A DNA stretch of 64,000 nt from NCBI GenBank assembly GCA_964573305.1, contig CAZNJG010000024.1, positions 81 through 64,080 on the forward strand, written 5' to 3'. Below, in pieces: positions 5,959-63,738 of this stretch. A program made the position numbers and the translations under genes. Positions within the stretch are counted from its first letter, which is position 1. The number at the start of each line of letters is the position of its first letter. The stretch comes from an uncultured Opitutaceae bacterium. Its GTDB lineage: Bacteria > Verrucomicrobiota > Verrucomicrobiia > Opitutales > Opitutaceae. The notes below the pieces were generated by a model. It had not been told where the DNA came from and made no database searches. It saw nothing but the letters and a program-made list of their open reading frames with translations.

Positions 5959-5972
5959 TGCGCGCGCGCGTT

Positions 5973-6098: not shown

Positions 6099-6114
6099 CG
6101 CCACGCGCCACGCG

Positions 6115-8204: not shown

Positions 8205-8283
8205 GATCCGTGGTGGAACGCGCCGTCCCGGCGCGTTTGCCGGGAGCGCCGCCGTCCCGCCGGCTTCTTTTTGCCTGCTCCAA

Positions 8284-9789: not shown

Positions 9790-9799
9790 TCTCTGCGTC

Positions 9800-12265
9800 C
9801 TACTTCGCTGCCGGCTCCGCGGTTTTTGATTCTGCACTCACGAGTTCTACCGCCGCTCCCTCAAGGCCCTCCGACTTCGCGCGAAGCACGATCGGCCCGG
9901 GCGTGTGCGTCGTCTGCACGATCACCTGCGCGAGTCCGTTGAAAAGTTTCCGCTCGCTCGCCTTGTCCGCTTCGTGCGAGCCGGGATCGCCATTGCCCAC
10001 GCCGATGATTTTTCCGCCGGTGATTTCAAACGTCACGAGATTGTCCGCGACCGGCACCGCGCGTCCTTGCGCATCGACGACGGAGACATCGATCACGGCG
10101 ACGTCATGATTGTCCGCAACCAGCTGCGTGCGATGCGCGGTGAGCATGAGCGTCGCCGGTGCACCCGTGGTTTCGACGCGTTTGGTTTCCACCACTTTGC
10201 CGCCGCGATAACCGCGGGCTTCCAGCACGCCGGGCGTGTACGCGACTTTCCACGCGAGATGGCCGTTGCGCGGCATGTCCTGTTTGCCGAGCGAGCGTCC
10301 GTTCAAGAACAGCTCGACTGCCTCGTGATTGCTGTGTGCGCGCACCTCGATCTCCTGCCCCTCGCGGCCCGGCCAGTTCCAGTGCGGGAAAATATGCAGC
10401 ACCGGTTCATCGCTCCACCAGGCTTTCAGATAATAAAAACTGTCCTTCGGAAACCCGCAGGTATCGAGAATGCCGAACTGCGAGCTCACCGCGGGCCACG
10501 CGAGCGGATTGGGTTCTCCGCGATAATCAAAACCCGTCCAATAAATCACGCCCGCGAGGTAGGGGCGCGCCGCGTAGTGTTTCCAACCGGTTTCCACATT
10601 TCCGCCCGAGGTTCCGTCTTCAAGCGGCGCGAGATGGCCGCGTTCGCGATCGTCGAAATAAATCCCACGCGTGGCCTGCGTGGTCGTTTCCTCCGTGCCG
10701 AGGATGACCTGCCACGGATACTCCGCGTGCTGTTTGTCGGTGTCGCCGTGCTTGATGTAGTTCACGCCCATCACTTCGACGACTTTCGAAATGCCGCCCC
10801 AGCCGCCGCTGATCGCGACCGTCATCATGCGCGTCGGATCGATCCGCTTCGCGAAGGCCTGCATGGTCGTCGTGATGCGTTCGCCAAACACATTGCCTTC
10901 GATCGCCCACTCCTCGTTGCCGAGCGACCAGAGGATCACACTCGGGTGATTGCGATCGCGCCGGATCATGCGCTCCACCGCGTCGAGATGCAGCGGATTC
11001 GATCCCATCAAACGCGTTTCATCGATCACGAGCATCCCGAGCCGGTCGCAGGCATCGAGCAGTTCCCGGGTCATGGGATTGTGCGAGGCGCGATACACAT
11101 TCGAGCCCATGTCCTTCAAGCGTTGGATGCGGAAATCCTGCAACGCATCCGGAATCGCCGCGCCCACGCCCGCGTGATCCTGGTGATTGTTCGTGCCCTT
11201 CAACTTCACGTGTTTCCCGTTCAGAAAAAATCCTTCGTCCGGATCGAAGCGAATCGTGCGAATGCCGAAGCGCGTCTCCGTCCGGTCGATCGCAACACCG
11301 CCCGCGTTCACCTCCGCCACGAGCGTGTACAAGATCGGCGTCTCCAGCGACCAGAGCCGCGGCGCCGTCACGGTCAGCGTCGCGCCGAGCTCCGCGGTCT
11401 CACCCGCCGCCAGCGTGCGCGCCGCCGTCGTGGATTCGGCCACGTTCTTCCCGTCGGCATCGATCACGCGATAGTTCACCGATACTTCCGCCGCATCCGC
11501 CTTCCGCAGCGCATGCGTCACTTCCGAACGCACGATCACCTGCGTCGCGCCCGCGGCATCGATTTCGGTCACGATCGCCGTGCCGTCCGCGACGAGGTGT
11601 ATCGGCGCGGTTTTTTCCAGCCACACATGCCGGTAGATGCCCGCGCCTTCGTAGAACCAGCCCTCCTCCATCGTCGCGTCCACGCGCACCGCGATCACGT
11701 TTTCCCCGCCATAATTCAGGTAGTCGGAAACGTCATATCGAAAATTCAAATACCCGCTCGGCTCCTCGCCGAGATAGAAGCCGTTGACCCACACGCGCGA
11801 CGCGCGAAACACGCCGTCGAACGCCACGCTGATCCGCCGCCCGAGATCCTCCGCGGGGATGCGAAAGGTCTTTCGATACCAGCCGACATTCACGTCGGGA
11901 AATCCCGGCCCCACCGCGCGGTAGCCGTGGCTGTGCGAGCCGTTCGCCGCGAACGGCATCTCCACCGCCCAGTCGTGCGGCAGATCGAGCATGCGCCACG
12001 CCGAGTCGTCGAACTTCCCCACCGGCGCCGCCGGCCCGTCGCCGAAACCGGTCTTCGTGATGTAGGAAAAATACCCCGTCGCGTGCCCGTGGTCTTTTTT
12101 CGTGTCGCTCGGATGCCCGAAGGCAAAGCGCCAGTCATCGTTCCAGCGGATGCGCTCGCGCCCGGCCGCCGGCTGCGCGACCGCTGCCGACGACGAGGTG
12201 CAAACACCCAGCGCGCAAAAGAACACGCTCAAAAAACGAAACGAAACGAACGGAGCCAGATTCAT
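9800..12265 (-). CDS. Glycoside hydrolase family 2 (beta-galactosidase/beta-glucuronidase-like), secreted
   Basis: Signal peptide MNLAPFVSFRFLSVFFCALGVCTSSSAAVA. The GH2 acid/base region is RDRNHPSVILWSLGNEE, and there are WTGFDYRGEP and sugar-binding N-terminal motifs. The start at 12265 was chosen over the 12652 ORF extension. Confidence 0.85.
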   Translation of the reverse strand: MNLAPFVSFRFLSVFFCALGVCTSSSAAVAQPAAGRERIRWNDDWRFAFGHPSDTKKDHGHATGYFSYITKTGFGDGPAAPVGKFDDSAWRMLDLPHDWAVEMPFAANGSHSHGYRAVGPGFPDVNVGWYRKTFRIPAEDLGRRISVAFDGVFRASRVWVNGFYLGEEPSGYLNFRYDVSDYLNYGGENVIAVRVDATMEEGWFYEGAGIYRHVWLEKTAPIHLVADGTAIVTEIDAAGATQVIVRSEVTHALRKADAAEVSVNYRVIDADGKNVAESTTAARTLAAGETAELGATLTVTAPRLWSLETPILYTLVAEVNAGGVAIDRTETRFGIRTIRFDPDEGFFLNGKHVKLKGTNNHQDHAGVGAAIPDALQDFRIQRLKDMGSNVYRASHNPMTRELLDACDRLGMLVIDETRLMGSNPLHLDAVERMIRRDRNHPSVILWSLGNEEWAIEGNVFGERITTTMQAFAKRIDPTRMMTVAISGGWGGISKVVEVMGVNYIKHGDTDKQHAEYPWQVILGTEETTTQATRGIYFDDRERGHLAPLEDGTSGGNVETGWKHYAARPYLAGVIYWTGFDYRGEPNPLAWPAVSSQFGILDTCGFPKDSFYYLKAWWSDEPVLHIFPHWNWPGREGQEIEVRAHSNHEAVELFLNGRSLGKQDMPRNGHLAWKVAYTPGVLEARGYRGGKVVETKRVETTGAPATLMLTAHRTQLVADNHDVAVIDVSVVDAQGRAVPVADNLVTFEITGGKIIGVGNGDPGSHEADKASERKLFNGLAQVIVQTTHTPGPIVLRAKSEGLEGAAVELVSAESKTAEPAAK

Positions 12266-53108: not shown

Positions 53109-54383
53109 TCAGCGCAGTATCCGCTCCGCCCACGAGGGCTCGGGAAGCGGCGTCGGTCGATATTCGCCAAAGAGTCGATAGCGTGTGCGCGCGACAAACT
53201 TGTACAACGCATCGCGCCCGCGCCGGGGCAGCACGCGCAACCACGAGACAACACGCGAGATTCCGCCGAGCGTATCCAAGACTGCGGCCACGCCGTCGGT
53301 TCGCAGAAAATAATCATGACCTTCGCGCCAGTTTTCCCGATCGGCGCGATCGATGTCGGGAATGAAAACCAGGCTGTCAAAGTCGTCTGTATCCATTTTC
53401 TGACTACGCAAGAACGCCTGGCCCGTCTCACCTTGCAGTGGCGCAAAGCGGAGCACCGCGCCGGTATCTTCGCGCAGGATCAAGCGCAGCACCGCGTTGC
53501 ACAGGCCGCATTCGCCATCGTAGAGCAGCACCGGCTGGCGCCCGGCTCCGGCTTTACGCGCCGGCAGCCACTCCGGATCGAAGGTGAACAAATGGATCAT
53601 GATCATGCCCAGGCTCAGGTCCGCGAAGTCCACCATGAGAATGATCCCGAGATGCATCGCCACCATCGCACTCCACACGGCCAGCCGTCCGCGCCGCCAC
53701 AGACTGAGCGGCAGGAAAAGGATTTCCGCGGCGAGGATCGTCCAGGTCAGCGCCGCGTGTATCCACGCCGGCATGACAAGAAACACGTCGCGCACCCAGC
53801 CGGGTCGCGCGAGCGGGTTGTCGATCAGGTGATGAAACGCCGTGCCATCGACCCAGCTCGGGCTCCAGAGTTTGACGACGCCGCTAAAGGTGTATCCCGC
53901 CGCCATCAAAAACCACGCGCCGGCATACACCCAGAACGGGAAAAACCAGTCGCCGGGTTTCACGGTTTTTCCCCGCCACCTCAGTGGCTCGCCATCCGGC
54001 ACGATCGCGAGAAAAAGCAGGATCATGCCGATGTACGGCAGCGAGGGATTCGCGATGAGGTTGTTGCGATTGAACAACGCCGCCCATCCAAACCAAAGCA
54101 GCAGCGAAACCGTGCGCCGCCGCCAGCCGGCCGCTAACAACCCCGCGAGCACGGCGAGTGTCGCGATGAATCCCGTCGCAAACGCCGGCGACGGCCACCA
54201 CACGAGCGGATTGGGAAAAAGTCCGTGCGTCGGATTGAGCGAGGGATCTGCGAGCGCACCCGCGCCGCTGAAGAGTTCTCCCGCGTACGGAATCAGCACC
54301 GTGTAGTGCCAGAACAAATACAGACCAAGGATGATCCGGAACAGCGTGAACTGACCGGGTGAAAACGGTTTTACTGAGCGCAT
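53109..54383 (-). CDS. Fusion of an HTTM-like polytopic membrane domain and a DCC-family (DUF393) thiol-disulfide oxidoreductase domain
   Basis: The N-terminal FTLFRIILGLYLFWHY... and ...ALFNRNNLIANPSLPYIGMILLFLAIVP, over about 8 TM segments, follow the HTTM pattern. The C-terminal VLLYDGECGLCNAVLRLIL...LRFAPLQGETGQ is the DCC CxxC signature. Confidence 0.65.
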   Translation of the reverse strand: MRSVKPFSPGQFTLFRIILGLYLFWHYTVLIPYAGELFSGAGALADPSLNPTHGLFPNPLVWWPSPAFATGFIATLAVLAGLLAAGWRRRTVSLLLWFGWAALFNRNNLIANPSLPYIGMILLFLAIVPDGEPLRWRGKTVKPGDWFFPFWVYAGAWFLMAAGYTFSGVVKLWSPSWVDGTAFHHLIDNPLARPGWVRDVFLVMPAWIHAALTWTILAAEILFLPLSLWRRGRLAVWSAMVAMHLGIILMVDFADLSLGMIMIHLFTFDPEWLPARKAGAGRQPVLLYDGECGLCNAVLRLILREDTGAVLRFAPLQGETGQAFLRSQKMDTDDFDSLVFIPDIDRADRENWREGHDYFLRTDGVAAVLDTLGGISRVVSWLRVLPRRGRDALYKFVARTRYRLFGEYRPTPLPEPSWAERILR

Positions 54384-54856
54384 GCCGGGGAGAGTTGCCA
54401 GACGTCGCTGCGGCCTTTTGTGCGGGTGCGAATCGTCACCGTGATGTCTTGCGCATCCGGGGACACACCAAACTCACGACGCAACACCCCGTCCGCTTTA
54501 AACGCGTAACAAAACACCGAGGTCCACAGCGGCTCCGGCATGCGCGGTGCATACGCGAGCGCGGCACCGTACACATTGCGTCGATTGTATGGTCCGCCGA
54601 GCTGTCCATACAGCTCGGGCGTGAGCGGCAGCGATCTCGCCGAACCATCCGGTTCGCGCCAGCTCAGCTCGAAGGTGGATGCGAACGTTTCCAAGCCATC
54701 CACATCCGAAAACACTTTCGGAAACGGGGCCGCACAACTCGCCGCACCGATGCCGCGCAGTGCGCGCGATTCCATCATGTAGCCGAGCATTTGCGTGCAA
54801 CCGAGCAGGGTCACGAGCAGCGCCATTATGTTGGCGCGCGATGTTGGGGCGGACAT
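54371..54856 (-). CDS. Hypothetical lipoprotein (161 aa), overlapping the downstream HTTM/DCC gene by 13 nt
   Basis: It has a lipobox-like N-terminus (MALLVTLLGC). I recognise no family. Confidence 0.5.
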   Translation of the reverse strand: MSAPTSRANIMALLVTLLGCTQMLGYMMESRALRGIGAASCAAPFPKVFSDVDGLETFASTFELSWREPDGSARSLPLTPELYGQLGGPYNRRNVYGAALAYAPRMPEPLWTSVFCYAFKADGVLRREFGVSPDAQDITVTIRTRTKGRSDVWQLSPACAQ

Positions 54857-55053
54857 GGCGTGCAGTTTTCAGCACGCGCTTCCGCCGCCAATCTCAAAAC
54901 GCCAGCAGCCGTTACGGCCACGCGCCTTCGCAGTTATTCGTAGTCACTTTTGCGAACACGCGCGGCGTTGAATTTTGCCAGCACCGTGCCCAGTGAACTA
55001 GGCGGGCGGACTCGCCGTCCTCACGTCGCCAACCAATCAACCTCCCGCTCCAC

Positions 55054-55557
55054 ATGAAACTGCCCCGACACCTCCGTTTCGTTCTCGTCACACTGAGCCT
55101 CGCCGCCGCCACGCACCCGCTTCATGCGCAAGCCGGCGACGTCGTCGTCACCAACGACCCGGTGAGCATCCTCTCGGTTACGAACGCCACCCTCACCGTG
55201 CCAGATCCTGCGGCCGGCGCGATCAAGGGTGGCACAGGCATCAACAGCGGCGCTGGTCCCGTCCTGCGCATCACCACCAACCAGACCAATCGCAAGATCA
55301 CGGTCTCGCGCAATACGCTGCCGGCCGGCGCCTCTTTCACGGTCGCCCTCGGTGCGCACTCCAGCTCCTTCACCGGCGGCACGGAAACAACCGTCACCAC
55401 ATCCGCCGCCGATTTCATCACGGGCATCAGCAATCTCGCCTCCAACGAGCACGACGCCTCCGGCATTCCGCTCGTGTACAAACTCACTCTCGGCGAAAAC
55501 ACGCCCTCCGGCGGATTCACGGTTACCGTCACCTACACGATCGAAGCCGGCAGCTGA
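55054..55557 (+). CDS. Small secreted beta-rich protein (167 aa), pilin/WxL-like candidate
   Basis: Signal peptide MKLPRHLRFVLVTLSLAAATHPLHA. It is Thr/Ser/Gly-rich with alternating strands and ends in TVTVTYTIEAGS. Confidence 0.6.
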   Translation: MKLPRHLRFVLVTLSLAAATHPLHAQAGDVVVTNDPVSILSVTNATLTVPDPAAGAIKGGTGINSGAGPVLRITTNQTNRKITVSRNTLPAGASFTVALGAHSSSFTGGTETTVTTSAADFITGISNLASNEHDASGIPLVYKLTLGENTPSGGFTVTVTYTIEAGS

Positions 55558-55636
55558 CCGCAACGCGGCGTCTCTCTGCCCATCCGCCGCACCGCCCATG
55601 TCCGCGAGGCGCGTTGTTCCGACCGGCCGGTCTCCG

Positions 55637-56107
55637 ATGGCGCGTCTTCGCTTTGCACTCATGGCGGCGCTGGTCGGTGCCGGCGTGGATCTTTCGCTGC
55701 ACGCCGCCGGCAACATCACCGTCTTCGATGGCACCCAGTCGCGCGTCGTCGGTCTCGCCGATCTCGCAGGAGGCGCCGGCGCGAATTACCACAACTCGCT
55801 GGTCTTCGCTTCGACCTTCACCTTGCGCGTCAGCTCCAGCGGACCGTGCCAGCTGTGGGTGCGTCGTCAGGACACGGGCACATGGCTCTCCGCAGGCGAA
55901 CTTCAGGTGCGTATCCTCCGCATCGGCGACAACCTCGATCCGCGCGAGCCGATCACCTTGAGCCCGACCGATTCACCGCTGACCGAGAGCGCCGTCCCGC
56001 TCGACAACCAACTCTACGAGCTGCGTTACCAACTGGAAAATTTCTCCGCGCAAAACTCCCCGGGCAGCTACGCGACCCAGGTCGTTTTCACGCTCACCGA
56101 CGCATGA
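55637..56107 (+). CDS. Small secreted beta-rich protein (156 aa), pilin/WxL-like candidate
   Basis: Signal peptide MARLRFALMAALVGAGVDLSLHA (an alternative ATG lies at 55598). It ends in ATQVVFTLTDA, and its stop overlaps the next ATG (ATGA at 56104-56107). Confidence 0.6.
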   Translation: MARLRFALMAALVGAGVDLSLHAAGNITVFDGTQSRVVGLADLAGGAGANYHNSLVFASTFTLRVSSSGPCQLWVRRQDTGTWLSAGELQVRILRIGDNLDPREPITLSPTDSPLTESAVPLDNQLYELRYQLENFSAQNSPGSYATQVVFTLTDA

Positions 56108-56982
56108 TTCCGCCGCGCTTTCTCCCGCTTCTTTTTTTCCCGCTGCTCCCCACGCTCGTCTCCGCCCATATTGTTGTCAGCGGCGAGCTCACCCGCGAGT
56201 TCACGCTGCAACCGGGTGCCTCCGCGCAGGGAAACATTCTTCTTCACAACTCGGGTTCGTCCGTGGCGCGCGCACGCATTTATCAGACCGATTACCGCAT
56301 GGACATCACCGGTCCGACCTACGGCGATCCGGGCAGCTCGGCGCGCTCGAACGCGGCATGGATCGAACTCGACGAACGCGAACCCGAGCTCCAACCCGGC
56401 GAAACCCGCGCCATCCTTTTTAAGCTGACCACACCCGACGATCCCGCGCTCCGTGGTACCTATTGGAGTGTGCTCATGGTCGAACCTTCCTTCGATGAAC
56501 GCACGCCCGCGCCCGGCGAAATTTCCGTCCGCGCCGTGGTTCGCTACGGCATCCAAATCGTCACACAAATCGGCTCACCGACCGCCACGATCCCGCCTGC
56601 GCTTTCCGATCCAGCCATCGAACGCGACGGTGATGCCCACGTCCTGCGCGTCGATCTCTCCAATGCCGGTGAACGCTGGCTGCGCCCGCGCGTGGAAGTG
56701 CGTCTGTTCGATGGCGAAGGCCGCGCCGTCATCACGCTCCCCTCAGCGCAGGCGCGCATTTATCCCGGGTCCTCCCTGCGTCAGCGTTTCTCTCTCACCG
56801 GTCTGAGCGCCGGTGAATATCTCGCGCTCATCGTGATGGATACCGACGACGCGCTCTTCGGTGCCCAATACCGCTTTCACCTCGAGGATATTTCTCACGG
56901 CAGTTCATCGCCTGCATCTCCCGCAAACATCGCCGGTCAGCACGCGCTTCCGCCTCTCCCGCAAAACCCAGGGAGAAACTAG
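56104..56982 (+). CDS. Secreted two-domain Ig-like protein (DUF916/DUF3324-like or chaperone-like)
   Basis: Signal peptide MIPPRFLPLLFFPLLPTLVSA. The first domain is FTLQPGASAQGNILLHNSGSSVARARIYQTDY...AAWIELDEREPELQPGETRAILFKLTTPDD..GTYWSVLMVE. The second is HVLRVDLSNAGERWLRPRVEVRLFDGEGRAV...IYPGSSLRQRFSLTGLSAGEYLALIVMD. Confidence 0.6.
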   Translation: MIPPRFLPLLFFPLLPTLVSAHIVVSGELTREFTLQPGASAQGNILLHNSGSSVARARIYQTDYRMDITGPTYGDPGSSARSNAAWIELDEREPELQPGETRAILFKLTTPDDPALRGTYWSVLMVEPSFDERTPAPGEISVRAVVRYGIQIVTQIGSPTATIPPALSDPAIERDGDAHVLRVDLSNAGERWLRPRVEVRLFDGEGRAVITLPSAQARIYPGSSLRQRFSLTGLSAGEYLALIVMDTDDALFGAQYRFHLEDISHGSSSPASPANIAGQHALPPLPQNPGRN

Positions 56983-56988
56983 GCCGCC

Positions 56989-59820
56989 ATGTGTCCGCGC
57001 GGGTCAGTCTTGAGGCGCGTCACCTTGGTTTTGTTTGGTTCTCTCGTCCTCCGCGCGGCTCCACCCGTCGAAATTCGCAGCGGTCAGCCAGCCATCGTCG
57101 CGCCCGGTGCTGTTTTCTCCGCGACCCTCGCACTGCCGCCCGCACTCACCGAGCCCGGCTCGCTGCTCCGCGACCGGCTGGTGCTTCCCCCCGGCTGGAC
57201 CGCCCTTTCGCCCGCCGATCTACCGTTCGCTGCAAACGCTGAAAATCGCATCCGCTTGATCGCCGTGCCCGTGCCGATCACCGCGGCCGCAGGGGACTAT
57301 CGCATCCTGTATTTGCTCACGCCGGAGGACGATCCCGGTCGCGAACTCACGCGCACCGAGCTCACGCTCACCGTGCCCGCCGTCTCCGCGCTTCGCATCG
57401 AACTCGAAACCGCTCCCGAGCGTCTCATCGCGGGCGATGCCATCCGTGCCACATGGCGTCTCACGAACCGCAGCAATCATCCTGCAAACGTCCAGTTGCG
57501 CGCGCGCAGTTCGCTGAAATTTCCGACCTCGCTCGCGACGCCTTTCCTGCCACTCGCTCCCGGCGAATCCGCGCTTGTTTCCGCCGAAGCAAACACCCCG
57601 CACGAACTCCGCAGCGAACAACCGCACGAGTTCCTGCTCGAGTCACGTTTCCACGACGGCCAGATCGAGTCCGTTCAGATCGTCTCCGCGCCCACGCGGC
57701 TTCTTCCGCGATTCACATCCATCGACGAGTCGCCCGACGATCTCCGTTTGTTTCTCAAAACCACGGCGGCGCGCCGCAACGCGGGCTCCCGTCAGGACAC
57801 CGGTTTTCAAGCCGAGATCTTTGGCGGCGGTTTCCTCGATGCCGCGCGCACACGCCATCTCGATCTCCTGCTTCGCTCCGGCCAGTTCGGCAACGACCGG
57901 CGCATCCTGGGACAGGAACGTTACAGCGTCCGTTACCGCAGTCCGTCGCTCGATCTGCTGCTCGGAGAAAACACCTTCAGCCTTTCACCGCTCACTCAAC
58001 GTTGGCAATGGGGCCGGGGCGCCGGAGCCGAATACCGGCACGCTTCGGTGGCGACCGGCGCGTATTTTCTCGAGACACGATTCACGCCCGCCGAATCGCG
58101 CTGGCAGGCGTGGTTTCTTCAATACGATCCCACGCGCACGCTCCGTCTCCGCTCCAATCTCCTCATTCAGGAGCGCCCGCTCACCGGTCCGTTCTCGGAC
58201 GCCCGCTCCGTTCTTCCGAGCGTGCAGGTTTTCCTTCAACCCGGCCGCCTCAACTCGCTGGAACTCGAAGCCGCGGCGAGCGACAACCGCCACACCTCCG
58301 ACGGTCATGCCTGGCGCGCGCGGCTGAAAGGCCGGCACGGCGCGAGCGTGTATTATGATTTTGAATACGTGGACGCGTCGCCCGACTACTTCGGCTATTA
58401 TCACGATCTCCGGTCGTCATCCGGCACACTCAGCTGGCAACCCGCTCCCGCGTGGCTCGCGCAAGGTTCCTTCCTCGAAACCAGACACAATCCCGGACGC
58501 GATCCGCGCAAGTCCTCCGCCTCCACTACTCGCACCGCCTCCGCCGGCCTCGACCGCCGCCTCTCCGAACGTTTCTCCACGGCACTTCACTACGCCTTCA
58601 CCGAAACGAGCGATCCGTTTCAATCCAGCCGTCCCGGATTCAAACAAAATGCCGCGATCCTTTCCGCCACCGCCACGAGCGCACGTTTCACGCTGCGCGC
58701 CACCGCGGAAGCCGGCCGCACCCGGATGGATCGCGTCGCCACGACCCCCGAATCCTTCGATTACGTTTCCCTCCTCGCGCTCGCACGGCCTTCGCCCGCA
58801 CGCCTGTATTCGCTCTACATGGGCACCGGCGACAGACGCTACGATCCGCGCCGCCGCGAGACGATGGCAACCGGCGCGATCCAATGGAATTTCTCCAACG
58901 GCCTCATCCTTCGCACCGCCGCATCCGCCAGCCGTTATCGCGATCGTCAGACGCACGACCAGGCGTCCGCGGAAGCCAGCGCCGCGTACACGTTTCGCGG
59001 CGGTTCATCCCTCGAAGGTAACATTCGCGTCGCATCGACCGATGGACGTCAGCAAGAGCGCACACTCTTCCTCAGCTACACGATGCCTCTGCCTGTTCCC
59101 AAGTTGCACAGCCGCGACTCCGCGAGCCTCGCCGGAGAAATCACGATCGAAACGCCCGAAGGACCGCGCCCTCTCGCCAGCATAATCCTCCGTCTCGGCA
59201 AACTCCAAGCCGCGACTGATCGCCACGGACGCTTCGTCTTTCCGTCCGTGAAACCCGGACGTCATGAACTCACCGTCGATCCCTCGTCGCTCGGCCTCAA
59301 CGTCGTGCTCGCGCATCCCGGACCTTTCTTCGTCGAACTCACCCGCAACCAGCGCACGCGTTTCGATCTCTTCGCCACGCGCGGCGCGCGCCTCGATGGA
59401 GAACTCGCGTGTTACGAAACCGCGCCGGAAGCACCGACGCCGATCGCTTCTTTGTCTGAAACAAAGCCGCAGCTTCCTTCAGCAAACGTCTATCGTCGCG
59501 GCGCACCGCTCGCGCGCGTGCGCATCGAGCTTCGCCGCGATGGAGAAAAACCACGCCGCACCTACACCGACGACCGCGGGCGTTTCACGTTCGACCGGCT
59601 TCCTCCGGGAGAATGGATCCTCACGTGCGACGAATCCGCACTTCCCGAACGTCATCATCTCGAGCAAAGCGAACAACGACTCACGCTCTCGGCCGATACG
59701 ACGACACGTCTTCCGCTGCGCATCCTCCCCATCCACCGCCCGTTCCAGATGCTCGACTCGCAATTGCTCACCCCGCCGCCGCACTCCCTCACCGCCGCAC
59801 GCACCACCCCAGCTCCCTGA
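56989..59820 (+). CDS. Large (943 aa) putative outer-membrane protein: N-terminal Ig/CARDB-like domains, central beta-barrel-like region, two C-terminal carboxypeptidase-regulatory-like domains
   Basis: It has a signal-like N-terminus (VTLVLFGSLVLRAA) and a CARDB-like segment (IAGDAIRATWRLTNRSNHPANVQLRA). There are many amphipathic strands ending in aromatics (GAYFLETRF, WQAWFLQY, VYYDFEYV, TLSWQP, ALHYAF, AIQWNF, AAYTF, LFLSYTM). Two GRF motifs (TDRHGRFVFPSVKPGRHELTV and DDRGRFTFDRLPPGEWILTC) follow. It starts 6 nt after the previous stop. Confidence 0.6.
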   Translation: MCPRGSVLRRVTLVLFGSLVLRAAPPVEIRSGQPAIVAPGAVFSATLALPPALTEPGSLLRDRLVLPPGWTALSPADLPFAANAENRIRLIAVPVPITAAAGDYRILYLLTPEDDPGRELTRTELTLTVPAVSALRIELETAPERLIAGDAIRATWRLTNRSNHPANVQLRARSSLKFPTSLATPFLPLAPGESALVSAEANTPHELRSEQPHEFLLESRFHDGQIESVQIVSAPTRLLPRFTSIDESPDDLRLFLKTTAARRNAGSRQDTGFQAEIFGGGFLDAARTRHLDLLLRSGQFGNDRRILGQERYSVRYRSPSLDLLLGENTFSLSPLTQRWQWGRGAGAEYRHASVATGAYFLETRFTPAESRWQAWFLQYDPTRTLRLRSNLLIQERPLTGPFSDARSVLPSVQVFLQPGRLNSLELEAAASDNRHTSDGHAWRARLKGRHGASVYYDFEYVDASPDYFGYYHDLRSSSGTLSWQPAPAWLAQGSFLETRHNPGRDPRKSSASTTRTASAGLDRRLSERFSTALHYAFTETSDPFQSSRPGFKQNAAILSATATSARFTLRATAEAGRTRMDRVATTPESFDYVSLLALARPSPARLYSLYMGTGDRRYDPRRRETMATGAIQWNFSNGLILRTAASASRYRDRQTHDQASAEASAAYTFRGGSSLEGNIRVASTDGRQQERTLFLSYTMPLPVPKLHSRDSASLAGEITIETPEGPRPLASIILRLGKLQAATDRHGRFVFPSVKPGRHELTVDPSSLGLNVVLAHPGPFFVELTRNQRTRFDLFATRGARLDGELACYETAPEAPTPIASLSETKPQLPSANVYRRGAPLARVRIELRRDGEKPRRTYTDDRGRFTFDRLPPGEWILTCDESALPERHHLEQSEQRLTLSADTTTRLPLRILPIHRPFQMLDSQLLTPPPHSLTAARTTPAP

Positions 59821-60007
59821 AGGCGGGATCCGAGCGCGCACTGCTGCGGTGGGCGGAGCGCACCGTAACATCGTCTCGGACGTGATTCGCGGTCTGGGGT
59901 CGGGCGGCGTTTTCGCGCTTCGATTCGGTTCACCGTTTCGGTTCACTTTGCGTCTCATTTTGTTTTAGCTCCGGCCGTTTCTTTCGCTTCGTCTCACGTC
60001 TCTTTTC

Positions 60008-61120
60008 ATGCGCATCGGGTCCATCGAGCTTTCGTCGCCGCTTTTTCTGTCTCCACTGGCTGGATACACCAACCTGCCCATGCGTCTCACCGTGCGCGAA
60101 CTCGGCGGGCTCGGCTGGGCTACGACGGATCTCGTCAACGCGCGCTCGCTCATCGAGCGCAACCGCACCGCACTCAGACTCGTCGCCTCGTGCGCCGAGG
60201 ATCAGCCGCTGGCGATCCAGCTTTTCGGCGCAGTGGCGGAAGAGATGCGCGATGCGGCGAAGATTTGCGAAGATCTCGGCGCCGCTTCGATCGACATCAA
60301 CATGGGCTGCCCCGTGAAGAAGGTCGTCAAGATCGGCGGCGGTTCCGCAATGATGACCGAGCTCGATAAAACTGCGGCGCTGGTTCGCGGCATGATCGAG
60401 GCCGTGAAGATTCCCGTAACCGCGAAGATGCGTCTCGGATGGGACGATGAGAACATCACCGCGCCCGACCTCTCACGTGTGCTCGAAGACGTGGGCGTGG
60501 CCGCGATTTTTGTGCATGGCCGCACACGCGCGCAGGGATTTTCCGGCCGCGTGAATCTCGCGGGAATCCGCGCCGTCGTCGAAGCAGTGAAAGCCATTCC
60601 CGTCATCGGCAACGGCGACGTGACCACGCCCGAGGCGGCAAAAACGATGATCGAGGAAACGGGCTGCGCCGGCGTGAGCATCGGGCGCGGCGCATTCTAT
60701 GATCCCTGGATTTTCCGTCGCACGGAGCCTCTGCTGCGCACTGGCGAACTGCTGCCCGAGCCCGATTTCGCCGAACGTCTGCGCGTGTTGCGCCGGCATT
60801 TCGATCGCTATGTCGAGTTTTACGGCGAAGCGGATGGCGCGAAATTTTTCCGACGCGTGGCGCCTTGGTACGCGAAACGTTTTGGTCCGGCGAAACCGTT
60901 CAAGCGCGCGATCCTCGCCATCTCTTCGCGCGCTGACTTTGAAGCGGCGATCGCCGAGTATGTGGCATGGCGTCAGCAGTTCTGCGACGAGCGCGGCGAG
61001 CTGCTGCCGAAATATCAGCCCGATCCGATGATCGCCTCGTTCATGCGCGATCCGGACGATCCGGATTCGCTCGAACGCGACGCCATCCCCGTGCCCAAAG
61101 GGCCGGTGGATGTGTGGTGA
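60008..61120 (+). CDS. tRNA-dihydrouridine synthase (Dus family)
   Basis: LFLSPLAGYTNLPMR, IDINMGCPVKKV (catalytic Cys) and FVHGRTRAQGFSG are the Dus signatures. Confidence 0.85.
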   Translation: MRIGSIELSSPLFLSPLAGYTNLPMRLTVRELGGLGWATTDLVNARSLIERNRTALRLVASCAEDQPLAIQLFGAVAEEMRDAAKICEDLGAASIDINMGCPVKKVVKIGGGSAMMTELDKTAALVRGMIEAVKIPVTAKMRLGWDDENITAPDLSRVLEDVGVAAIFVHGRTRAQGFSGRVNLAGIRAVVEAVKAIPVIGNGDVTTPEAAKTMIEETGCAGVSIGRGAFYDPWIFRRTEPLLRTGELLPEPDFAERLRVLRRHFDRYVEFYGEADGAKFFRRVAPWYAKRFGPAKPFKRAILAISSRADFEAAIAEYVAWRQQFCDERGELLPKYQPDPMIASFMRDPDDPDSLERDAIPVPKGPVDVW

Positions 61121-61148: not shown

Positions 61149-62444
61149 TCAGTAACGCCGCGACATCAGCGCGCCGCGGTTGTCTTCGAAGACAATGCGT
61201 TTGTCGGCGGGCTCGAGGCGGCGGAAAACGATGCCCAGCTTGGGATCCACGGTTTCACCCAGCCGGTACATTTTGCCGTTGATCATGGCGCGGGCGTTAT
61301 CGCCCTGAAATACGCCGGCAATCTTCATGCTCGCGACAAAACTCCGGAACGCAGGTGTCGGATCGGGACGGACGGTTTCCGCAGGCGCAGGAGCCGGCAC
61401 CGAGGTGGCCGGAACATCGGCAACAACCGGCGCCGGTTCTTCGACGGCGGATGTCGCCGGGGCTGAAACGGGCGCGGGTATTGATGTTTTGGATACATCC
61501 GTCGATGCGGCGACGGCAGGAGCTTCGGGCGCCAGCAGGTCATCGACCGGAGCAGTGTGAGCGGCATCGTGCGCGGCGACGGTGGCCTTGACCTGCGCGA
61601 GCGCTTTGCCGGCGTCGGAAGCCTGTGCGTCGGGGACTGCGGGCGCCGGATCCTTTTGCTCAGGTGCAGCGGGCGCTTCCGCGGGAGCGGTTTCGGTTTT
61701 CCGAACAACCGGAGCCGGGGCGTCCGGTTCCGCGAACCAATAATTGTACGCCAGCACGGCAAACAGGCCGGTGGCGACAAACAACAAGGCGAGAAGCAGC
61801 TTCAGTCCATTGCGGCCCGCATGAGCGGCCGGTTCGCGCGCAGGCGGCACGGGCTTGCGCAGCTTGGCCGGGAACGCCGGGGCGGGAGCCGTCGAAGGCA
61901 GGGGCGCGATCGGCATATTGGGCCGGCCGGAGACGGGTGTGGTGGGCTTGGGAAAGGCGGGCTCGACCGGGGCGGCGGCGGGCATCGCCGGACGGGGAAT
62001 CGGTATCGATCCGTTGGATACAACGGTCGGCTCCGTCGGTGGAGTGGTCGCGGGAGCAGCGGGCGTGGGGACGGCAGCCGGAGCCGCGTTCCCGGCAGGC
62101 GCCGGCGTGGCCGCGGACGCGGACGACTGACCGACAGGGACCTTGATGCGCGGGCGCAGTTTAAATTTGCCAGGATCCTCGGCGGGCGGCGGCGAAGACT
62201 GCGCAGGGAGTGGCGCGGGGACGCGTTCCGGAGGAAGCGGTGAAGGCATCGACGCGGGCAGCGGCGCAGGCGCGGACATGGACTGGGCCGATGGAGACGC
62301 GGCTTGGGCGGGCGTGGCGGGAATGATGGGCGCGGCGGGTTGCTCCGTGGGCGCGGGCGATGCCGGAGCGGGGGTGTCGGCTGCAGGATCCTGCCGAAGG
62401 CGGGGCTTGAGGCGCAAAGAAGGCGTCTGGGATTCGTTGCTCAT
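61149..62444 (-). CDS. Pro/Ala-rich single-pass membrane protein with a small C-terminal beta-domain (hypothetical)
   Basis: It has about 200 aa of low-complexity P/A/T sequence, then TM helix LKLLLALLFVATGLFAVLAYNYWF. The C-terminal IAGVFQGDNARAMINGKMYRLGETVDPKLGIVFRRLEPADKRIVFED is weakly reminiscent of PilP/GspC-type domains. Confidence 0.5.
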   Translation of the reverse strand: MSNESQTPSLRLKPRLRQDPAADTPAPASPAPTEQPAAPIIPATPAQAASPSAQSMSAPAPLPASMPSPLPPERVPAPLPAQSSPPPAEDPGKFKLRPRIKVPVGQSSASAATPAPAGNAAPAAVPTPAAPATTPPTEPTVVSNGSIPIPRPAMPAAAPVEPAFPKPTTPVSGRPNMPIAPLPSTAPAPAFPAKLRKPVPPAREPAAHAGRNGLKLLLALLFVATGLFAVLAYNYWFAEPDAPAPVVRKTETAPAEAPAAPEQKDPAPAVPDAQASDAGKALAQVKATVAAHDAAHTAPVDDLLAPEAPAVAASTDVSKTSIPAPVSAPATSAVEEPAPVVADVPATSVPAPAPAETVRPDPTPAFRSFVASMKIAGVFQGDNARAMINGKMYRLGETVDPKLGIVFRRLEPADKRIVFEDNRGALMSRRY

Positions 62445-62865: not shown

Positions 62866-63738
62866 TCACACGAGAAGGCGGAGGACGGATTGCTCCGACT
62901 TGGAGCCCTGCGTGAGCATGGCGGTGGCAGTCTCGTTGAGCATGCCGAGTCGCGCGATGCGGGTGGATTCGGTGGCGACGTCCACATCGGTGATCTTGGA
63001 AATCGCGCTGGTGAGATTCTCACGCTCCGTGGCGATGCCCTTGCCGATGAGTTCGAGACGGCTGCCGACGCCGCCGAGCGTGGCGCGGTGATCGGCGATC
63101 TGGGCGAGTGACTGGATGATCGTGTCGATCGCAGCGGGATCGGTGGCGGAAAGTTCAAAGGCGCCCGCGCCATCCTGGCGGAAGATCGCGAGCGTGGGAC
63201 CTTCGCGCAGATTGGTCTGCGGGATGATGAGCCGCTGGGTCGAAGCCTGGCCGGTGGCGACGAGCGTGCCTTCGGGATTGGCGCCGAAGACTTCGCGTCC
63301 GTTGAAGCTGCCCATCGGGCGCGGGATATCCTGGGTGCCGCCGATCTCGGTGGTGGATCCGCCGACGGTGTTGCGGATCTGGGTTTGGAGCTGTTGAAAC
63401 TCGAGCTGGTAGAGTTCGATGTCGCCCGCGTTTTTCATCGGATCCCCGGCGAGGACCGCGAGCTCCGACATGCGGTTGAGGAGATTGCCGATGCCGTTCA
63501 GGAAACCATCCGCCGATTGCACGTAGGAGACGGAGTTCTGGACGTTGTTGCTGGCGGCGGCGAGGCGCAGCTTTTGCGCCGAGAGTTTTTCAGCGAGGGA
63601 GTTGCCGGCGGGGTCGTCGGAGGCGGAGACGAGGCGTTTGGCCGAGCTGAGGCGCGCGATGGAGCGGCTGAGCAACTCGCGGGTGCGGCCGAGGAAATCG
63701 GCGTCGCGGGCAAGCTGGGTCTGGACGGTGACGCTCAT
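62866..63738 (-). CDS. Flagellin-family protein (FliC/Hag-like; FlgL not excluded)
   Basis: The N-terminal [25 protein letters not shown]...[17 protein letters not shown]...[11 protein letters not shown] and the C-terminal [35 protein letters not shown] match the conserved flagellin D0/D1 helices. The ATG overlaps the csrA stop. Confidence 0.75.

What the first reader, a model, noticed from the sequence alone, without database searches (positions are those of the whole stretch)
55054..59820. Four-gene secreted/outer-membrane cluster resembling a diderm version of WxL/Csc or chaperone-usher surface-assembly systems
Four same-strand genes all have signal peptides, and the last three are tightly packed (ATGA overlap at 56104, 6-nt gap at 56983-56988).
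- Genes 1 and 2 encode small Thr/Ser/Gly-rich beta proteins ending in TVTVTYTIEAGS and QVVFTLTDA. These endings resemble the C-terminal (W/Y/F)xL-x-DAP strand of Gram-positive WxL proteins, or a pilin donor strand.
- Gene 3 is a two-domain Ig-like protein. Its logic (F.L.PG....I.L.N.S..., AWIELD...L.PGE...F.L..P....G.Y) recalls DUF916/DUF3324 CscA-type proteins or PapD-like chaperones.
- Gene 4 is a 943-aa protein. It has N-terminal CARDB-like domains, a long run of amphipathic aromatic-terminated strands (probable beta-barrel), and two carboxypeptidase-regulatory-like domains.

I know of no characterised system with this composition in PVC bacteria. It may be a novel fibre or surface-layer assembly pathway.
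Basis: inference. Interest (0 to 1): 0.75.

Follow-up and report, generated by a model that had tools for sequence, protein, structure and literature searches.

The report
Unannotated chaperone-usher-like surface fibre operon
Four adjacent genes in this Opitutaceae (Verrucomicrobiota) window look like a previously undescribed, very widespread relative of the pilus-building chaperone-usher machines, and its chaperone-like part is homologous to the WxL-interacting protein of Gram-positive bacteria.

Summary
Four same-strand genes (55054-59820) encode signal-peptide proteins, with the stated ATGA overlap and 6-nt gap.

- **Gene 4.** The AlphaFold2 model (pLDDT 82) has two N-terminal Ig-like domains, a barrel of about 24-26 strands and two C-terminal beta-sandwiches. 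Its ten best PDB matches are all FimD or PapC ushers (E down to 5e-16).
- **Gene 3.** The model (pLDDT 89) is a two-Ig-domain protein. It is homologous to the Enterococcus WxL-interacting protein (DUF916/DUF3324): hhalign E 1.4e-10, Foldseek E 7e-12. It lacks that protein's membrane anchor, and its next-best structural matches include pilus chaperones.
- **Genes 1 and 2.** They belong to one new family of small beta-rich subunits. Gene 1 carries an N-terminal extension of alternating hydrophobic residues, about 14 residues across the family. Gene 2 is the type that lacks it, as pilus tip subunits do.
- **Conservation.** In 76 of 78 related loci with enough downstream DNA, from about 20 phylum-level lineages, the gene-4 homologue lies directly downstream of the gene-3 homologue. 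The system occurs in at least 576 loci among GTDB species-representative genomes. The gene-4 family has at least 1,890 clusters at 50% identity.

None of the four matches a Pfam usher, chaperone, pilin or WxL model. I found no paper describing the system.

The best reading is a new chaperone-usher-type fibre pathway. Subunit fold and strand exchange remain untested.

The parts
55054..55557 (+). g1: canonical small secreted subunit (167 aa). Signal peptide is residues 1-25. The N-terminal extension is about residues 26-37 (QAGDVVVTNDPV). The C-terminal strand is FTVTVTYTIE (155-164).
   Evidence: Searches give the gene and signal peptide. The family alignments are. g1 matches the subunit profile from position 1 (E 3.5e-57). 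Extension length is compared. No Pfam, NCBIfam or PDB sequence hit.
55637..56107 (+). g2: divergent small subunit of the same family (156 aa). Signal peptide is residues 1-23. The mature protein starts at the first core strand (AGNITVFDG), so it lacks the N-terminal extension. It ends QVVFTLTDA.
   Evidence: It matches the subunit profile (E 7e-39). Its position next to g3 and its divergence are conserved in 39 of 53 loci. Short N-terminus: 15 residues in g2 against 24 in g1; family medians are 13 and 27.
56104..56982 (+). g3: periplasmic two-Ig-domain protein (292 aa), a WxLIP homologue with a chaperone-like fold. Signal peptide is 1-21, domain 1 about 23-129, a long loop plus strand 130-156 (invariant R147-Y148), domain 2 to 260, and a disordered Pro/Ser tail 262-292. 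No membrane anchor.
   Evidence: AlphaFold2 pLDDT 89, pTM 0.80. Foldseek: 9i25_C and 9i1y WxLIP at E 7e-12, pilus chaperones at E about 1e-7. Profile vs PDB E 2e-5. hhalign vs WxLIP E 1.4e-10. No TM helix.
56989..59820 (+). g4: usher-like outer-membrane protein (943 aa), signal peptide 1-23.
   Evidence: AlphaFold2 pLDDT 81.7. Foldseek top 10 are all FimD or PapC, E 5e-16 to 8e-12 over about 800 columns. hhalign vs 7 classical ushers gives probability 78% and P 1.9e-5. No Pfam Usher hit.
57091..57708 (+). g4 N-terminal periplasmic module: two Ig-like (CARDB/NEW3-like) beta-sandwiches, residues 35-130 and 135-240.
   Evidence: DSSP of the model. Weak NPCBM_assoc and Ig_VWA7 hits. Domain 2 resembles g3 domain 1 (hhalign P 1.5e-6).
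57742..59091 (+). g4 predicted transmembrane beta-barrel, residues 252-701: 26 strand elements, most of them long and antiparallel, so 24-26 barrel strands.
   Evidence: block-mean pLDDT in this region is mostly 85-97, with a few blocks at 70-83. PapC pore 2vqi has TM-score 0.41 normalised to the target. The barrel alone vs ushers gives P 4.6e-4.
57835..58008 (+). g4 conserved insert after barrel strand 2 (residues 283-340). It holds much of the family's most conserved sequence (Y312, Y316, R317, G326, L332-S333-P334-L335-T336, then G342 and G344). It is a candidate gate or plug element.
   Evidence: Invariant columns of alignment A1 and short strands in the model. The role is inference only, because model coordinates could not be inspected.
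59122..59730 (+). g4 C-terminal periplasmic module: two CarboxypepD_reg / transthyretin-like beta-sandwiches (residues 712-811 and 835-914). They sit where an usher's CTD1 and CTD2 sit.
   Evidence: Pfam PF13620, E 1e-12, two stretches. DSSP. hhalign places g4 712-806 on the C-terminal domain region of FimD.

Best explanation
The four genes form one operon for a chaperone-usher-type surface fibre, built from protein families that have not been annotated as such.

Proposed mechanism:
1. All four products are exported by Sec.
2. In the periplasm, g3 captures the small subunits g1 and g2. g3 is a soluble two-Ig-domain homologue of the Gram-positive WxL-interacting protein. It would lend a beta-strand from its long domain-1 loop and strand (residues 130-156) to complete their beta-sandwich. 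AlphaFold2 predicts this for WxLIP-WxL pairs, and PapD-type chaperones are known to do it.
3. The g3-subunit complexes dock on g4. g4 is an outer-membrane protein with usher architecture: N-terminal Ig-like domains, a barrel of 24-26 strands, and two C-terminal beta-sandwich domains.
4. At g4, the chaperone strand is replaced by the roughly 14-residue N-terminal extension of the next subunit (consensus T-V-T-[F/V/Y]-x-V-x-A-I). The chain is threaded outward through the barrel.
5. g2 has no N-terminal extension. It would enter first and sit at the distal tip. g1 would form the shaft.

Shown here: gene structure, the fold and homology of g3, the architecture of g4, the two subunit types, and strict co-occurrence of the three components.

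Inferred: Sec export, strand complementation, strand exchange, polymerisation, and the tip role of g2.
For: - **g4 model and matches.** The AlphaFold2 model has the domain order of an usher. The ten best of 350,542 PDB chains are FimD or PapC, aligned over about 800 columns (E 5e-16 to 8e-12). Porins, LptD and TonB-dependent receptors score about 1e-7 or worse.
- **g4 profile comparison.** Against classical ushers the alignment is co-linear (g4 512-806 to FimD 454-802, the end of the barrel plus the first C-terminal domain), with P 1.9e-5.
- **g3 homology.** g3 is homologous to WxLIP over both domains. Unlike WxLIP, it has no membrane anchor.
- **g3 fold.** Its fold also matches CfaA, Caf1M, CsuC and FimC, with TM-scores of 0.5-0.58 normalised to the target.
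- **WxLIP precedent.** AlphaFold2 complexes reported in PMC10599100 show WxLIP completing the WxL beta-sandwich with a strand from a hairpin. PDB 9i25 is WxLIP bound to a long WxL protein.
- **Gene order.** The order small subunit(s), g3, g4 holds in 76 of 78 loci with room downstream and 68 of 71 with room upstream. Subunit profile hits per locus range from 0 to 11. This is typical of pilus operons with major and minor pilins.
- **Two subunit types.** 121 canonical subunits have 27 residues (median) between the signal-peptide core and the first core strand. 24 subunits have 13. The extra segment has alternating hydrophobic residues.
- **Position of the short type.** It is the g3-proximal gene in 39 of 53 loci.
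- **C-terminal strand.** T-V-T-[F/L/Y]-T-[L/I/V] is the most conserved part of the subunit, with T162 in 99% of sequences.
Against: - There is no evidence for an incomplete fold or a groove in g1 or g2.
- **No multimer model.** No complex could be predicted.
- **No curated family match.** None of the four proteins reaches any Pfam or NCBIfam model for ushers, PapD chaperones, fimbrial subunits, SCPU or WxL.
- **Weak similarity of g4 to ushers.** TM-scores are low (0.28-0.42). Profile similarity is only 78% probable, and beta-barrels can inflate such scores.
- **No plug domain.** No plug domain of usher size or position was identified.
- **Generic match for g3.** Two-Ig-domain proteins are common, and the Foldseek list for g3 also contains CEP192, RbmA and a Vpr fibril.
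- **No polymer precedent in the closest relative.** The closest sequence relative of g3 works in a system (WxL clusters) that is not known to make polymers.
- **No experimental data** exist for any member.
Confidence: 0.6

Rival explanations
1. Surface display without polymerisation, a diderm WxL-type complex. g4 exports g1 and g2 as monomers. They stay attached non-covalently at the cell surface, bound to g4 domains or to g3, and act as adhesins or binding modules, as WxL proteins do on WxLIP in Firmicutes.
For: The only component with significant sequence homology to a studied system is g3, to WxLIP. WxL clusters also pair one WxLIP with two or more small secreted partners (PMC10599100). The C-terminal strand of g1 and g2 resembles the WxL C-terminal motif, and at low stringency the profiles align co-linearly over 128 columns.
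Against: g3 lacks the WxLIP anchor, so it cannot tether anything to the cell. WxL homology of the subunits is not significant (P 0.018-0.04). This reading does not explain the split into subunits with and without an N-terminal extension, or up to 11 subunit paralogues per locus. An usher-like machine with four periplasmic domains is elaborate for simple export.
Confidence: 0.2
2. A highly diverged true member of the classical chaperone-usher superfamily, for example an extreme archaic or sigma-like branch. On this view it is a remote orthologue set that current HMMs miss, not a separate system built from other families.
For: hhalign gives g4 vs classical ushers P 1.9e-5, co-linear over the end of the barrel and the first C-terminal domain. 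All top structural hits are ushers. Some sources label g3 relatives 'P pilus assembly chaperone PapD'. The N- and C-terminal strands of the subunits look pilin-like.
Against: There are no Pfam hits to Usher, PapD_N, PapD_C, Fimbrial or SCPU even at E <= 1-10. hhalign is at chance for g3 vs FimC (P 0.05) and for the subunits vs Fim pilins (P 0.03). g3 is significantly related to WxLIP instead. The periplasmic domains of g4 are CARDB-like and CarboxypepD_reg-like, not the usher N- and C-terminal domain families.
Confidence: 0.12
3. An outer-membrane uptake or porin system. g4 would be a substrate channel, g3 a periplasmic binding or scaffold protein, and g1 and g2 accessory surface or periplasmic binding proteins. 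This echoes the original proposal that Csc/WxL clusters act in carbohydrate utilisation.
For: CarboxypepD_reg domains also occur in SusC-type TonB-dependent transporters (my own knowledge). Foldseek lists Occ porins, BtuB and FemA at E about 1e-7 to 1e-6. PMC1534035 proposed a carbohydrate-utilisation role for Csc clusters (title and abstract only).
Against: There is no TonB-dependent receptor or Plug Pfam hit. The CarboxypepD_reg domains are C-terminal, not N-terminal as in SusC. Neighbouring genes differ between phyla and include no glycoside hydrolases or transporters. Multiple paralogous small subunits with conserved terminal strands do not fit a binding-protein role.
Confidence: 0.05

Closest known systems
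Classical chaperone-usher pili (type 1 FimC/FimD/FimA-H, P pili PapD/PapC; Pfam PF00345, PF02753, PF00577, PF00419)
   Same: - The operon logic matches: one or more small signal-peptide subunits, a periplasmic two-Ig-domain protein of about 270 aa, and an outer-membrane protein of about 900 aa.
- g4 has the usher domain order (periplasmic N-terminal domain(s), large barrel, two C-terminal beta-sandwiches), and FimD and PapC are its best PDB matches.
- g3 superposes on chaperones with TM-scores of about 0.5-0.58.
- Most subunits carry an N-terminal extension with alternating hydrophobic residues, and one type lacks it, as tip adhesins do.
   Different: - There is no significant sequence-family membership for any component.
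- g4 has two N-terminal Ig-like domains of CARDB type and CarboxypepD_reg-type C-terminal domains.
- No usher-type plug was identified between strands 6 and 7. Instead there is a conserved 58-residue insert after strand 2.
- The subunits lack the pilin disulfide, and g1 has no Cys or Trp.
- The distribution covers Verrucomicrobiota, Planctomycetota, Bacteroidota, Gemmatimonadota, Zixibacteria, Armatimonadota, Spirochaetota and others. Classical systems are mainly found in Proteobacteria (my own knowledge).
WxL / Csc clusters of Firmicutes (WxL proteins with WxLIP = DUF916/DUF3324; PDB 9i1y, 9i25; PMC10599100)
   Same: - g3 is a homologue of WxLIP over both Ig domains (hhalign E 1.4e-10, Foldseek E 7e-12).
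- 13 of 77 family members give sub-threshold PF06030 hits.
- Both systems cluster one such protein with two or more small secreted beta-rich partners.
- The WxLIP-WxL interaction is predicted to be strand complementation.
- The subunit C-termini (VTYTI.., VFTLTDA, VTFTLVSTP) echo the WxL C-terminal motif LTWTLxxAP.
   Different: - g3 has no C-terminal transmembrane helix. The maximum 19-residue hydropathy is 1.63 or less, against 2.3-3.6 in nine WxLIPs.
- The diderm system adds an outer-membrane usher-like protein that WxL clusters lack, and it has no LPXTG partner.
- The subunits are shorter (about 140 aa mature) and most lack the Trp-x-Leu motifs. Homology to WxL domains is unproven (P 0.018-0.04).
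Archaic (sigma) chaperone-usher systems: Csu pili of Acinetobacter, spore coat protein U (SCPU, PF05229) clusters of Myxococcus
   Same: These are widely distributed outside Enterobacteria, with small subunits of about 150-170 aa and several paralogous subunits per operon (my own knowledge). CsuC is among the structural matches of g3 (E about 4e-7).
   Different: No SCPU, PapD or Usher Pfam hits appear in any of the 17 scanned subunits or 77 scanned g3 relatives. Archaic systems are recognisable members of the classical families. This system is not.
Donor-strand fibres assembled without an usher (TasA of Bacillus, archaeal bundling pili and threads)
   Same: Small beta-sandwich subunits joined by strand donation, recently found to be widespread (abstracts listed).
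   Different: Those systems have no periplasmic chaperone or outer-membrane usher-like protein. No sequence or profile link was seen here.

Membership tests
Outer-membrane usher (Pfam PF00577 with PF13954 and PF13953) | Significant match to the Usher HMM | tested here: not met
   No PF00577 hit at E <= 1 for g4. hhalign of 65 g4 relatives against 7 classical ushers gives probability 77.6% and P 1.9e-5. The barrel alone gives P 4.6e-4.
Outer-membrane usher | Architecture: periplasmic N-terminal domain, large (24-strand) barrel, two C-terminal beta-sandwich domains | tested here: met
   AlphaFold2 DSSP shows beta-sandwiches at 35-130 and 135-240, 26 strand elements at 252-701, and beta-sandwiches at 712-811 and 835-914. 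The Foldseek top 10 are FimD or PapC over about 800 columns. The strand count (24 or 26) is not resolved.
Outer-membrane usher | Plug domain inserted in the barrel between strands 6 and 7 that gates the pore | not testable with these tools
The only insert seen in the DSSP string is a conserved 58-residue segment after strand 2.
PapD-like periplasmic chaperone (PF00345 and PF02753) | Significant match to the PapD_N or PapD_C HMMs | tested here: not met
   No such hits among 77 g3 relatives at E <= 1; only 4 hit PF14874 'PapD-like' weakly. hhalign of g3 vs FimC gives P 0.05.
PapD-like periplasmic chaperone | Two Ig-like domains in a boomerang arrangement; soluble and periplasmic | tested here: met
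   AlphaFold2 pLDDT 89, pTM 0.80. Foldseek matches to CfaA, Caf1M, CsuC, FimC, SafB and DraB have E about 1e-7 and TM-scores of 0.46-0.58 normalised to the target. g3 has a signal peptide and no TM helix.
PapD-like periplasmic chaperone | G1 donor strand, plus cleft Arg and Lys residues that anchor the subunit C-terminus | not tested
   g3 has a long loop and strand at 130-156 with invariant R147-Y148 and an invariant PRSNAAW motif. Their position relative to a cleft could not be examined.
WxLIP (PF06030 WxLIP_PGBD and PF11797 WxLIP_HBD) | Homology over both Ig domains | tested here: met
   The g3 family profile hits EfmWxLIP1 (9i25_C, 9i1y) at E 2e-5. hhalign vs 9 WxLIPs gives probability 96.9% and E 1.4e-10 over 233 columns. 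WxLIP is the Foldseek top hit at E 7e-12. The Pfam gathering threshold is not reached: 13 of 77 relatives give weak PF06030 hits, best E 2e-4.
WxLIP | C-terminal transmembrane helix anchoring the protein to the cell | tested here: not met
   The maximum 19-residue hydropathy outside the signal peptide is 1.63 or less in 77 g3 relatives, against 2.3-3.6 in 9 WxLIPs. The g3 tail (262-292) is Pro/Ser-rich and of low confidence.
WxLIP | Clustered with at least two WxL-domain proteins (definition in PMC10599100) | tested here: not met
   The partners g1 and g2 give no PF13731 hit. hhalign vs WxL domains gives P 0.04, or 0.018 after trimming, against reversed-control scores of 13.5 vs 20.1.
WxL domain (PF13731), for g1 and g2 | Two Trp-x-Leu motifs and a significant HMM match | tested here: not met
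   g1 has no Trp. There is no Pfam hit in 17 subunits at E <= 10. Only the C-terminal strand resembles the distal WxL motif.
Chaperone-usher pilin (PF00419 Fimbrial, PF05229 SCPU) | HMM match; incomplete Ig fold with an N-terminal extension | tested here: inconclusive
   There is no HMM match, and hhalign vs Fim pilins gives P 0.03. An N-terminal extension is supported by the comparison of 121 long with 24 short subunits and by its alternating hydrophobic pattern.
TonB-dependent / SusC-like transporter | Plug (PF07715) and TonB_dep_Rec (PF00593) domains; N-terminal CarboxypepD_reg | tested here: not met
   There are no such Pfam hits, and the CarboxypepD_reg domains are C-terminal. TonB-dependent receptors rank below the ushers in Foldseek.

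The most novel reading that the evidence does not exclude
This operon represents an ancient, near pan-bacterial class of donor-strand fibre machine, found in diderm bacteria of about 20 phylum-level lineages. It is distinct from the classical chaperone-usher families. The WxL/WxLIP adhesion clusters of monoderm Firmicutes would then be its derivative, having lost the usher with the outer membrane and gained a membrane anchor on the chaperone. The g3/WxLIP family would be the evolutionary bridge between Gram-positive WxL surface display and Gram-negative chaperone-usher pili, and g1-type proteins would define a new pilin class.
Probability: 0.3. Interest if true: 0.9.

Novelty: new variant of a known kind. 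Interest (0 to 1): 0.8.

Why it matters
- **Distribution of the pathway.** From my own knowledge of the field, chaperone-usher pili are treated as mainly proteobacterial. Here a machine with the same architecture occurs in at least 576 loci among GTDB species-representative genomes. These span Verrucomicrobiota, Planctomycetota, Bacteroidota, Ignavibacteria, Gemmatimonadota, Zixibacteria, Krumholzibacteriota, Armatimonadota, Spirochaetota, Desulfobacterota, Elusimicrobia, Atribacteria, Dictyoglomaceae and some Bacillota MAGs. The large protein has at least 1,890 clusters at 50% identity.
- **Annotation.** Essentially all members are labelled hypothetical, or named only after their carboxypeptidase-regulatory or NEW3 domain. 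Recognising the system would annotate thousands of proteins and give candidate adhesion or biofilm fibres for many uncultured lineages.
- **A testable mechanism for WxL clusters.** It suggests a chaperone-type strand-complementation mechanism for the WxL/WxLIP clusters, which are described as virulence- and adhesion-related in Enterococcus, Listeria and lactobacilli (abstracts).
- **Evolution of cell envelopes.** It provides a concrete case for how surface machines changed at diderm-to-monoderm transitions.
- **An experimental handle.** A cultured species with a complete genome, Nibricoccus aquaticus, carries the operon, so experiments are feasible.

Tried and rejected
- **Pfam and NCBIfam on all four proteins** gave only generic Ig-like and CarboxypepD_reg hits on g4. 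The weak GSU2204-family hit on g4 509-604 (E 3e-4 against a cut-off of 350 bits) was set aside as barrel-like composition.
- **Single-sequence PDB searches** found nothing useful.
- **Subunit profile (17 sequences) against PDB and Pfam** gave only chance hits such as TORC2 BIT61 and a WD-repeat protein.
- **Subunits vs WxL domains.** I built WxL and WxLIP alignments from Enterococcus, Listeria, Bacillus, Melissococcus and Lactiplantibacillus plasmids. hhalign aligned only the C-terminal 17 columns at P 0.04. After trimming signal peptides it gave P 0.018 against reversed controls, and the global mode failed. Homology is not established.
- **Other profile comparisons at chance level:** subunits vs Fim pilins, g3 vs FimC, and WxLIP vs FimC.
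- **A small WxL protein against PDB**, to retrieve the WxL chain of 9i25, gave no hit.
- **Promoter and terminator scan** of 54300-60300 found nothing above the shuffled expectation.
- **Literature searches** (WxL with chaperone-usher or donor strand; usher with environmental phyla; usher-like with AlphaFold; recent WxL structure papers) found no description of this system.
- **The cyanobacterial tubular pilus paper** was checked and concerns a different gene set.
- **The 'signal-strapping' metalloprotein paper** only mentions DUF916 as a neighbour. The mature N-terminal His of g3 is not conserved, since the family consensus is Gln. The His-brace idea was dropped.
- **S-layer reading** was rejected because there is no supporting evidence: the subunits are about 14 kDa, they come in several paralogues, and they are coupled to an usher-like pore.

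Full report
**1. Observation**

The region holds four co-directional genes:
- g1, 55054-55557, 167 aa.
- g2, 55637-56107, 156 aa.
- g3, 56104-56982, 292 aa.
- g4, 56989-59820, 943 aa.

The upstream gene lies on the other strand. The next downstream gene is a dihydrouridine synthase 187 nt away. The four genes therefore form a self-contained unit.

Each product starts with a basic-then-hydrophobic signal-peptide-like segment ending in an A-x-A-like site. The predicted cleavage sites are LHA|Q, LHA|A, VSA|H and LRA|A. None has another hydrophobic stretch or a lipobox.

Pfam and NCBIfam give nothing for g1-g3. For g4 they give two C-terminal CarboxypepD_reg domains plus weak CARDB/NEW3-like matches near the N-terminus.

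**2. The large protein, g4**

Sequence search found only 17 relatives through the word index. A full HMMER scan of 1.84 billion cluster representatives with the family profile found more:
- 1,890 proteins at E <= 1e-30.
- 5,076 proteins at E <= 1e-10.
- The best 150 include a few truncated or extended entries (786-1,379 aa); the rest are full-length matches of about 880-1,200 aa, mostly 900-1,000.

AlphaFold2 on a 16-sequence alignment gave mean pLDDT 81.7. Block-mean pLDDT in the central region is mostly 85-97. The domain layout is:

| Residues | Element |
|---|---|
| 35-130, 135-240 | two N-terminal beta-sandwiches |
| 252-701 | 26 strand elements, most of them long and antiparallel |
| 712-811, 835-914 | two C-terminal beta-sandwiches |

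In the Foldseek search of the PDB, the ten best matches were all FimD or PapC ushers, with E 5e-16 to 8e-12 over about 800 aligned columns. Apart from Ig-repeat ciliary proteins, other barrel families follow at about 1e-7 or worse: Occ porins, LptD and TonB-dependent receptors.

TM-scores are low (0.28-0.42). This is expected for multi-domain proteins with mobile domains, but it also shows how remote the similarity is.

I compared 65 g4 relatives with seven classical ushers (FimD, MrkC, PefC, FaeD and three others) by profile-profile alignment. The result was probability 77.6% and P 1.9e-5. The alignment is co-linear, running from g4 512-806 to FimD 454-802, which covers the last barrel strands and the first C-terminal domain. 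The barrel alone gave P 4.6e-4.

g4 therefore has usher architecture. At best it is a very remote relative of ushers, and it is not a member of the Pfam Usher family.

Much of the most conserved sequence in the family lies in a 58-residue insert after the second barrel strand. It includes Y312, Y316, R317, G326 and L-S-P-L-T at 332-336, followed by G342 and G344. This insert may gate the pore. I could not check that without model coordinates.

**3. The 292-aa protein, g3**

The family is larger than g4's first search suggested: at least 155 proteins were found, and some sources label them 'P pilus assembly chaperone PapD'.

AlphaFold2 on 77 sequences gave pLDDT 89 and pTM 0.80. The model has two Ig-like domains and a disordered Pro/Ser-rich tail.

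Evidence that g3 is a WxLIP homologue:
- The family profile hits E. faecium WxLIP1 in the PDB (9i25, 9i1y) at E 2e-5.
- Foldseek puts the same entries first, at E 7e-12 and TM-score 0.52-0.58.
- hhalign against nine WxLIPs taken from Firmicutes plasmids gives probability 96.9% and E 1.4e-10 over 233 columns, spanning both domains.

The next structural matches are a Vpr fibril and a CEP192 domain. After these come chaperones of chaperone-usher pili: CfaA, Caf1M, YadV, CsuC, DraB, FimC and SafB, at E about 1e-7. Sequence-profile similarity to FimC is at chance.

Unlike WxLIP, no g3 relative has a C-terminal membrane helix. g3 should therefore be a soluble periplasmic protein.

The WxLIP paper reports AlphaFold2 complexes in which a WxLIP hairpin becomes a strand that fills a gap in the WxL beta-sandwich (PMC10599100). 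That is the logic of chaperone donor-strand complementation. PDB 9i25 is WxLIP bound to a long WxL protein.

**4. The small proteins, g1 and g2**

They have no pairwise similarity by BLASTP. They do align within one family once relatives from other loci are added, and both match the family profile strongly.

The 154-sequence alignment shows a Thr/Ser/Gly/Ala-rich, all-beta pattern. The best-conserved positions are G55 (94%), L95 (90%), Y142 (81%) and the C-terminal strand T-V-T-[F/L/Y]-T-[L/I/V], in which T162 occurs in 99% of sequences.

No Pfam or PDB sequence match exists. Profile comparison gave these results:
- Against WxL domains, only the C-terminal strand aligns (P 0.04; P 0.018 after trimming; reversed controls score lower). 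The alignment extends co-linearly over 128 columns only at low stringency.
- Against Fim pilins, P is 0.03.

The new finding is that there are two subunit types:
- 121 canonical subunits, including g1, have a median of 27 residues between the signal-peptide core and the first core strand.
- 24 subunits have a median of 13 residues there. g2, with 15, is of this short type.
- The extra roughly 14 residues read T-V-T-[F/V/Y]-x-V-x-A-I, an alternating hydrophobic pattern.
- The short type starts directly at the core strand, with a mature N-terminus like IDISATGGW.
- The short type is the g3-proximal gene in 39 of 53 loci that have two or more upstream subunits.

This is the pattern of pilins that carry an N-terminal extension, plus one tip subunit that lacks it.

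**5. Conservation of the system**

Neighbours of distant g4 and g3 relatives, at 25-40% identity, show the same set: one to several proteins of about 160 aa, one of about 270 aa and one of about 900-1,000 aa.

They come from Verrucomicrobiota, Planctomycetota, Bacteroidota, Ignavibacteria, Zixibacteria, Krumholzibacteriota, Armatimonadota, Spirochaetota, Desulfobacterota, Bacteriovoracaceae, Elusimicrobia, Riflebacteria, Eisenbacteria, Atribacteria, Dictyoglomaceae and some Bacillota MAGs. Gemmatimonadota also appear.

- The g4 homologue lies directly downstream of g3 in 76 of the 78 with enough downstream DNA. The two exceptions still contain g4, either rearranged or frameshifted.
- A subunit gene lies upstream in 68 of 71.
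- By profile hits there are 0 to 11 subunit genes per locus. The richest loci are a Bacteriovoracaceae MAG, with 13 listed hits, and an Armatimonadetes MAG with 8.

Flanking genes differ between phyla. The three-part module is therefore the conserved unit.

**6. Mechanism**

The best-supported reading is a chaperone-usher-type fibre pathway, at confidence 0.6:
1. Sec exports all four proteins.
2. g3 captures the subunits by strand complementation.
3. The complexes dock on the periplasmic domains of g4.
4. The N-terminal extension of the next subunit replaces the chaperone strand.
5. The chain is extruded through the barrel, with g2 at the tip and g1 as the shaft.

The shown steps are the architectures, the homologies, the co-occurrence and the two subunit types. 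The inferred steps are every protein-protein interaction and the polymerisation itself.

Rival readings and their confidences:

| Reading | Confidence |
|---|---|
| WxL-like surface display without polymerisation | 0.2 |
| An extremely diverged true member of the classical chaperone-usher superfamily | 0.12 |
| An uptake or porin system | 0.05 |

**7. Comparison with known systems, and novelty**

The system works like a chaperone-usher pathway but fails the sequence-family tests for usher, PapD chaperone and pilin. Its chaperone-like component is a WxLIP homologue, yet it lacks the WxLIP anchor and recognisable WxL partners.

Eight literature searches found no description of such a diderm system, and no link drawn between WxL clusters and chaperone-usher pathways. 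The held library is incomplete, and any paper accompanying PDB 9i25 was not found in it. I therefore rate this a new variant of a known kind rather than categorically new.

**8. Limits**

- No multimer prediction was available.
- Model coordinates could not be inspected.
- E-values from pairwise hhalign on beta-rich proteins should be read cautiously.

Noticed in passing
window 57391-57708 (g4 residues 135-240) and 56170-56490 (g3 domain 1): The second N-terminal Ig-like domain of g4 resembles the first domain of g3 (hhalign probability 90%, P 1.5e-6, shared PGE...N.GN pattern). One Longimicrobium-type g3 homologue also hit the g4 profile weakly. The usher-like protein may carry a chaperone-related module.
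   Followed up: partly
L056 (Bacteriovoracaceae MAG, 525-12032) and L077 (Armatimonadetes MAG, 814-5968): These loci carry large expansions of subunit paralogues around the g3-g4 pair: 13 listed profile hits in L056 and 8 in L077, some on the opposite strand. This suggests variable or exchangeable fibre subunits.
   Followed up: no
L031, L040, L063, L083 (MAGs labelled Bacillota, Clostridiales or Firmicutes): MAGs labelled as Firmicutes carry the complete diderm-type module, including the usher-like gene. They are either diderm Firmicutes lineages or mis-binned contigs. This bears on the relationship to monoderm WxL clusters.
   Followed up: no
window 53109-54383 (-) and 54371-54856 (-): A 424-aa protein has a multi-pass membrane N-terminal part fused to a DCC1-like thiol-disulfide oxidoreductase domain (PF04134, E 1e-19). 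A 161-aa ORF with no Pfam hit lies immediately upstream of it on the same strand, overlapping it by 13 nt. In Nibricoccus aquaticus the DCC1-like gene at this position is only 147 aa.
   Followed up: no
window 61149-62444 (-): A 431-aa Pro/Ala/Thr-rich protein has one central hydrophobic segment (LKLLLALLFVATGLFAVLAYNYWF) and no Pfam match. It lies between the Dus gene and a flagellin-family gene. Local GC reaches 0.70.
   Followed up: no
window 62866-63738 (-): A 290-aa protein has flagellin N- and C-terminal helical regions (PF00669, PF00700). It is short for a flagellin and may be a hook-filament junction (FlgL-like) protein.
   Followed up: no
L088 (CP069367.1, 'Klebsiella pneumoniae' plasmid pSP4663_1, 101788-102277): A record labelled as a Klebsiella plasmid holds DNA encoding a protein 93.6% identical to E. 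faecium WxLIP1, split into two pieces and unannotated. This is probably Enterococcus DNA in a mis-assembled or contaminated record.
   Followed up: no
window 55021-55734 (-), 55122-55532 (-) and other long antisense ORFs: The GC-rich sequence (about 0.63) produces many long ORFs antisense to, or out of frame with, g1-g4. They have no independent support and were treated as spurious.
   Followed up: partly
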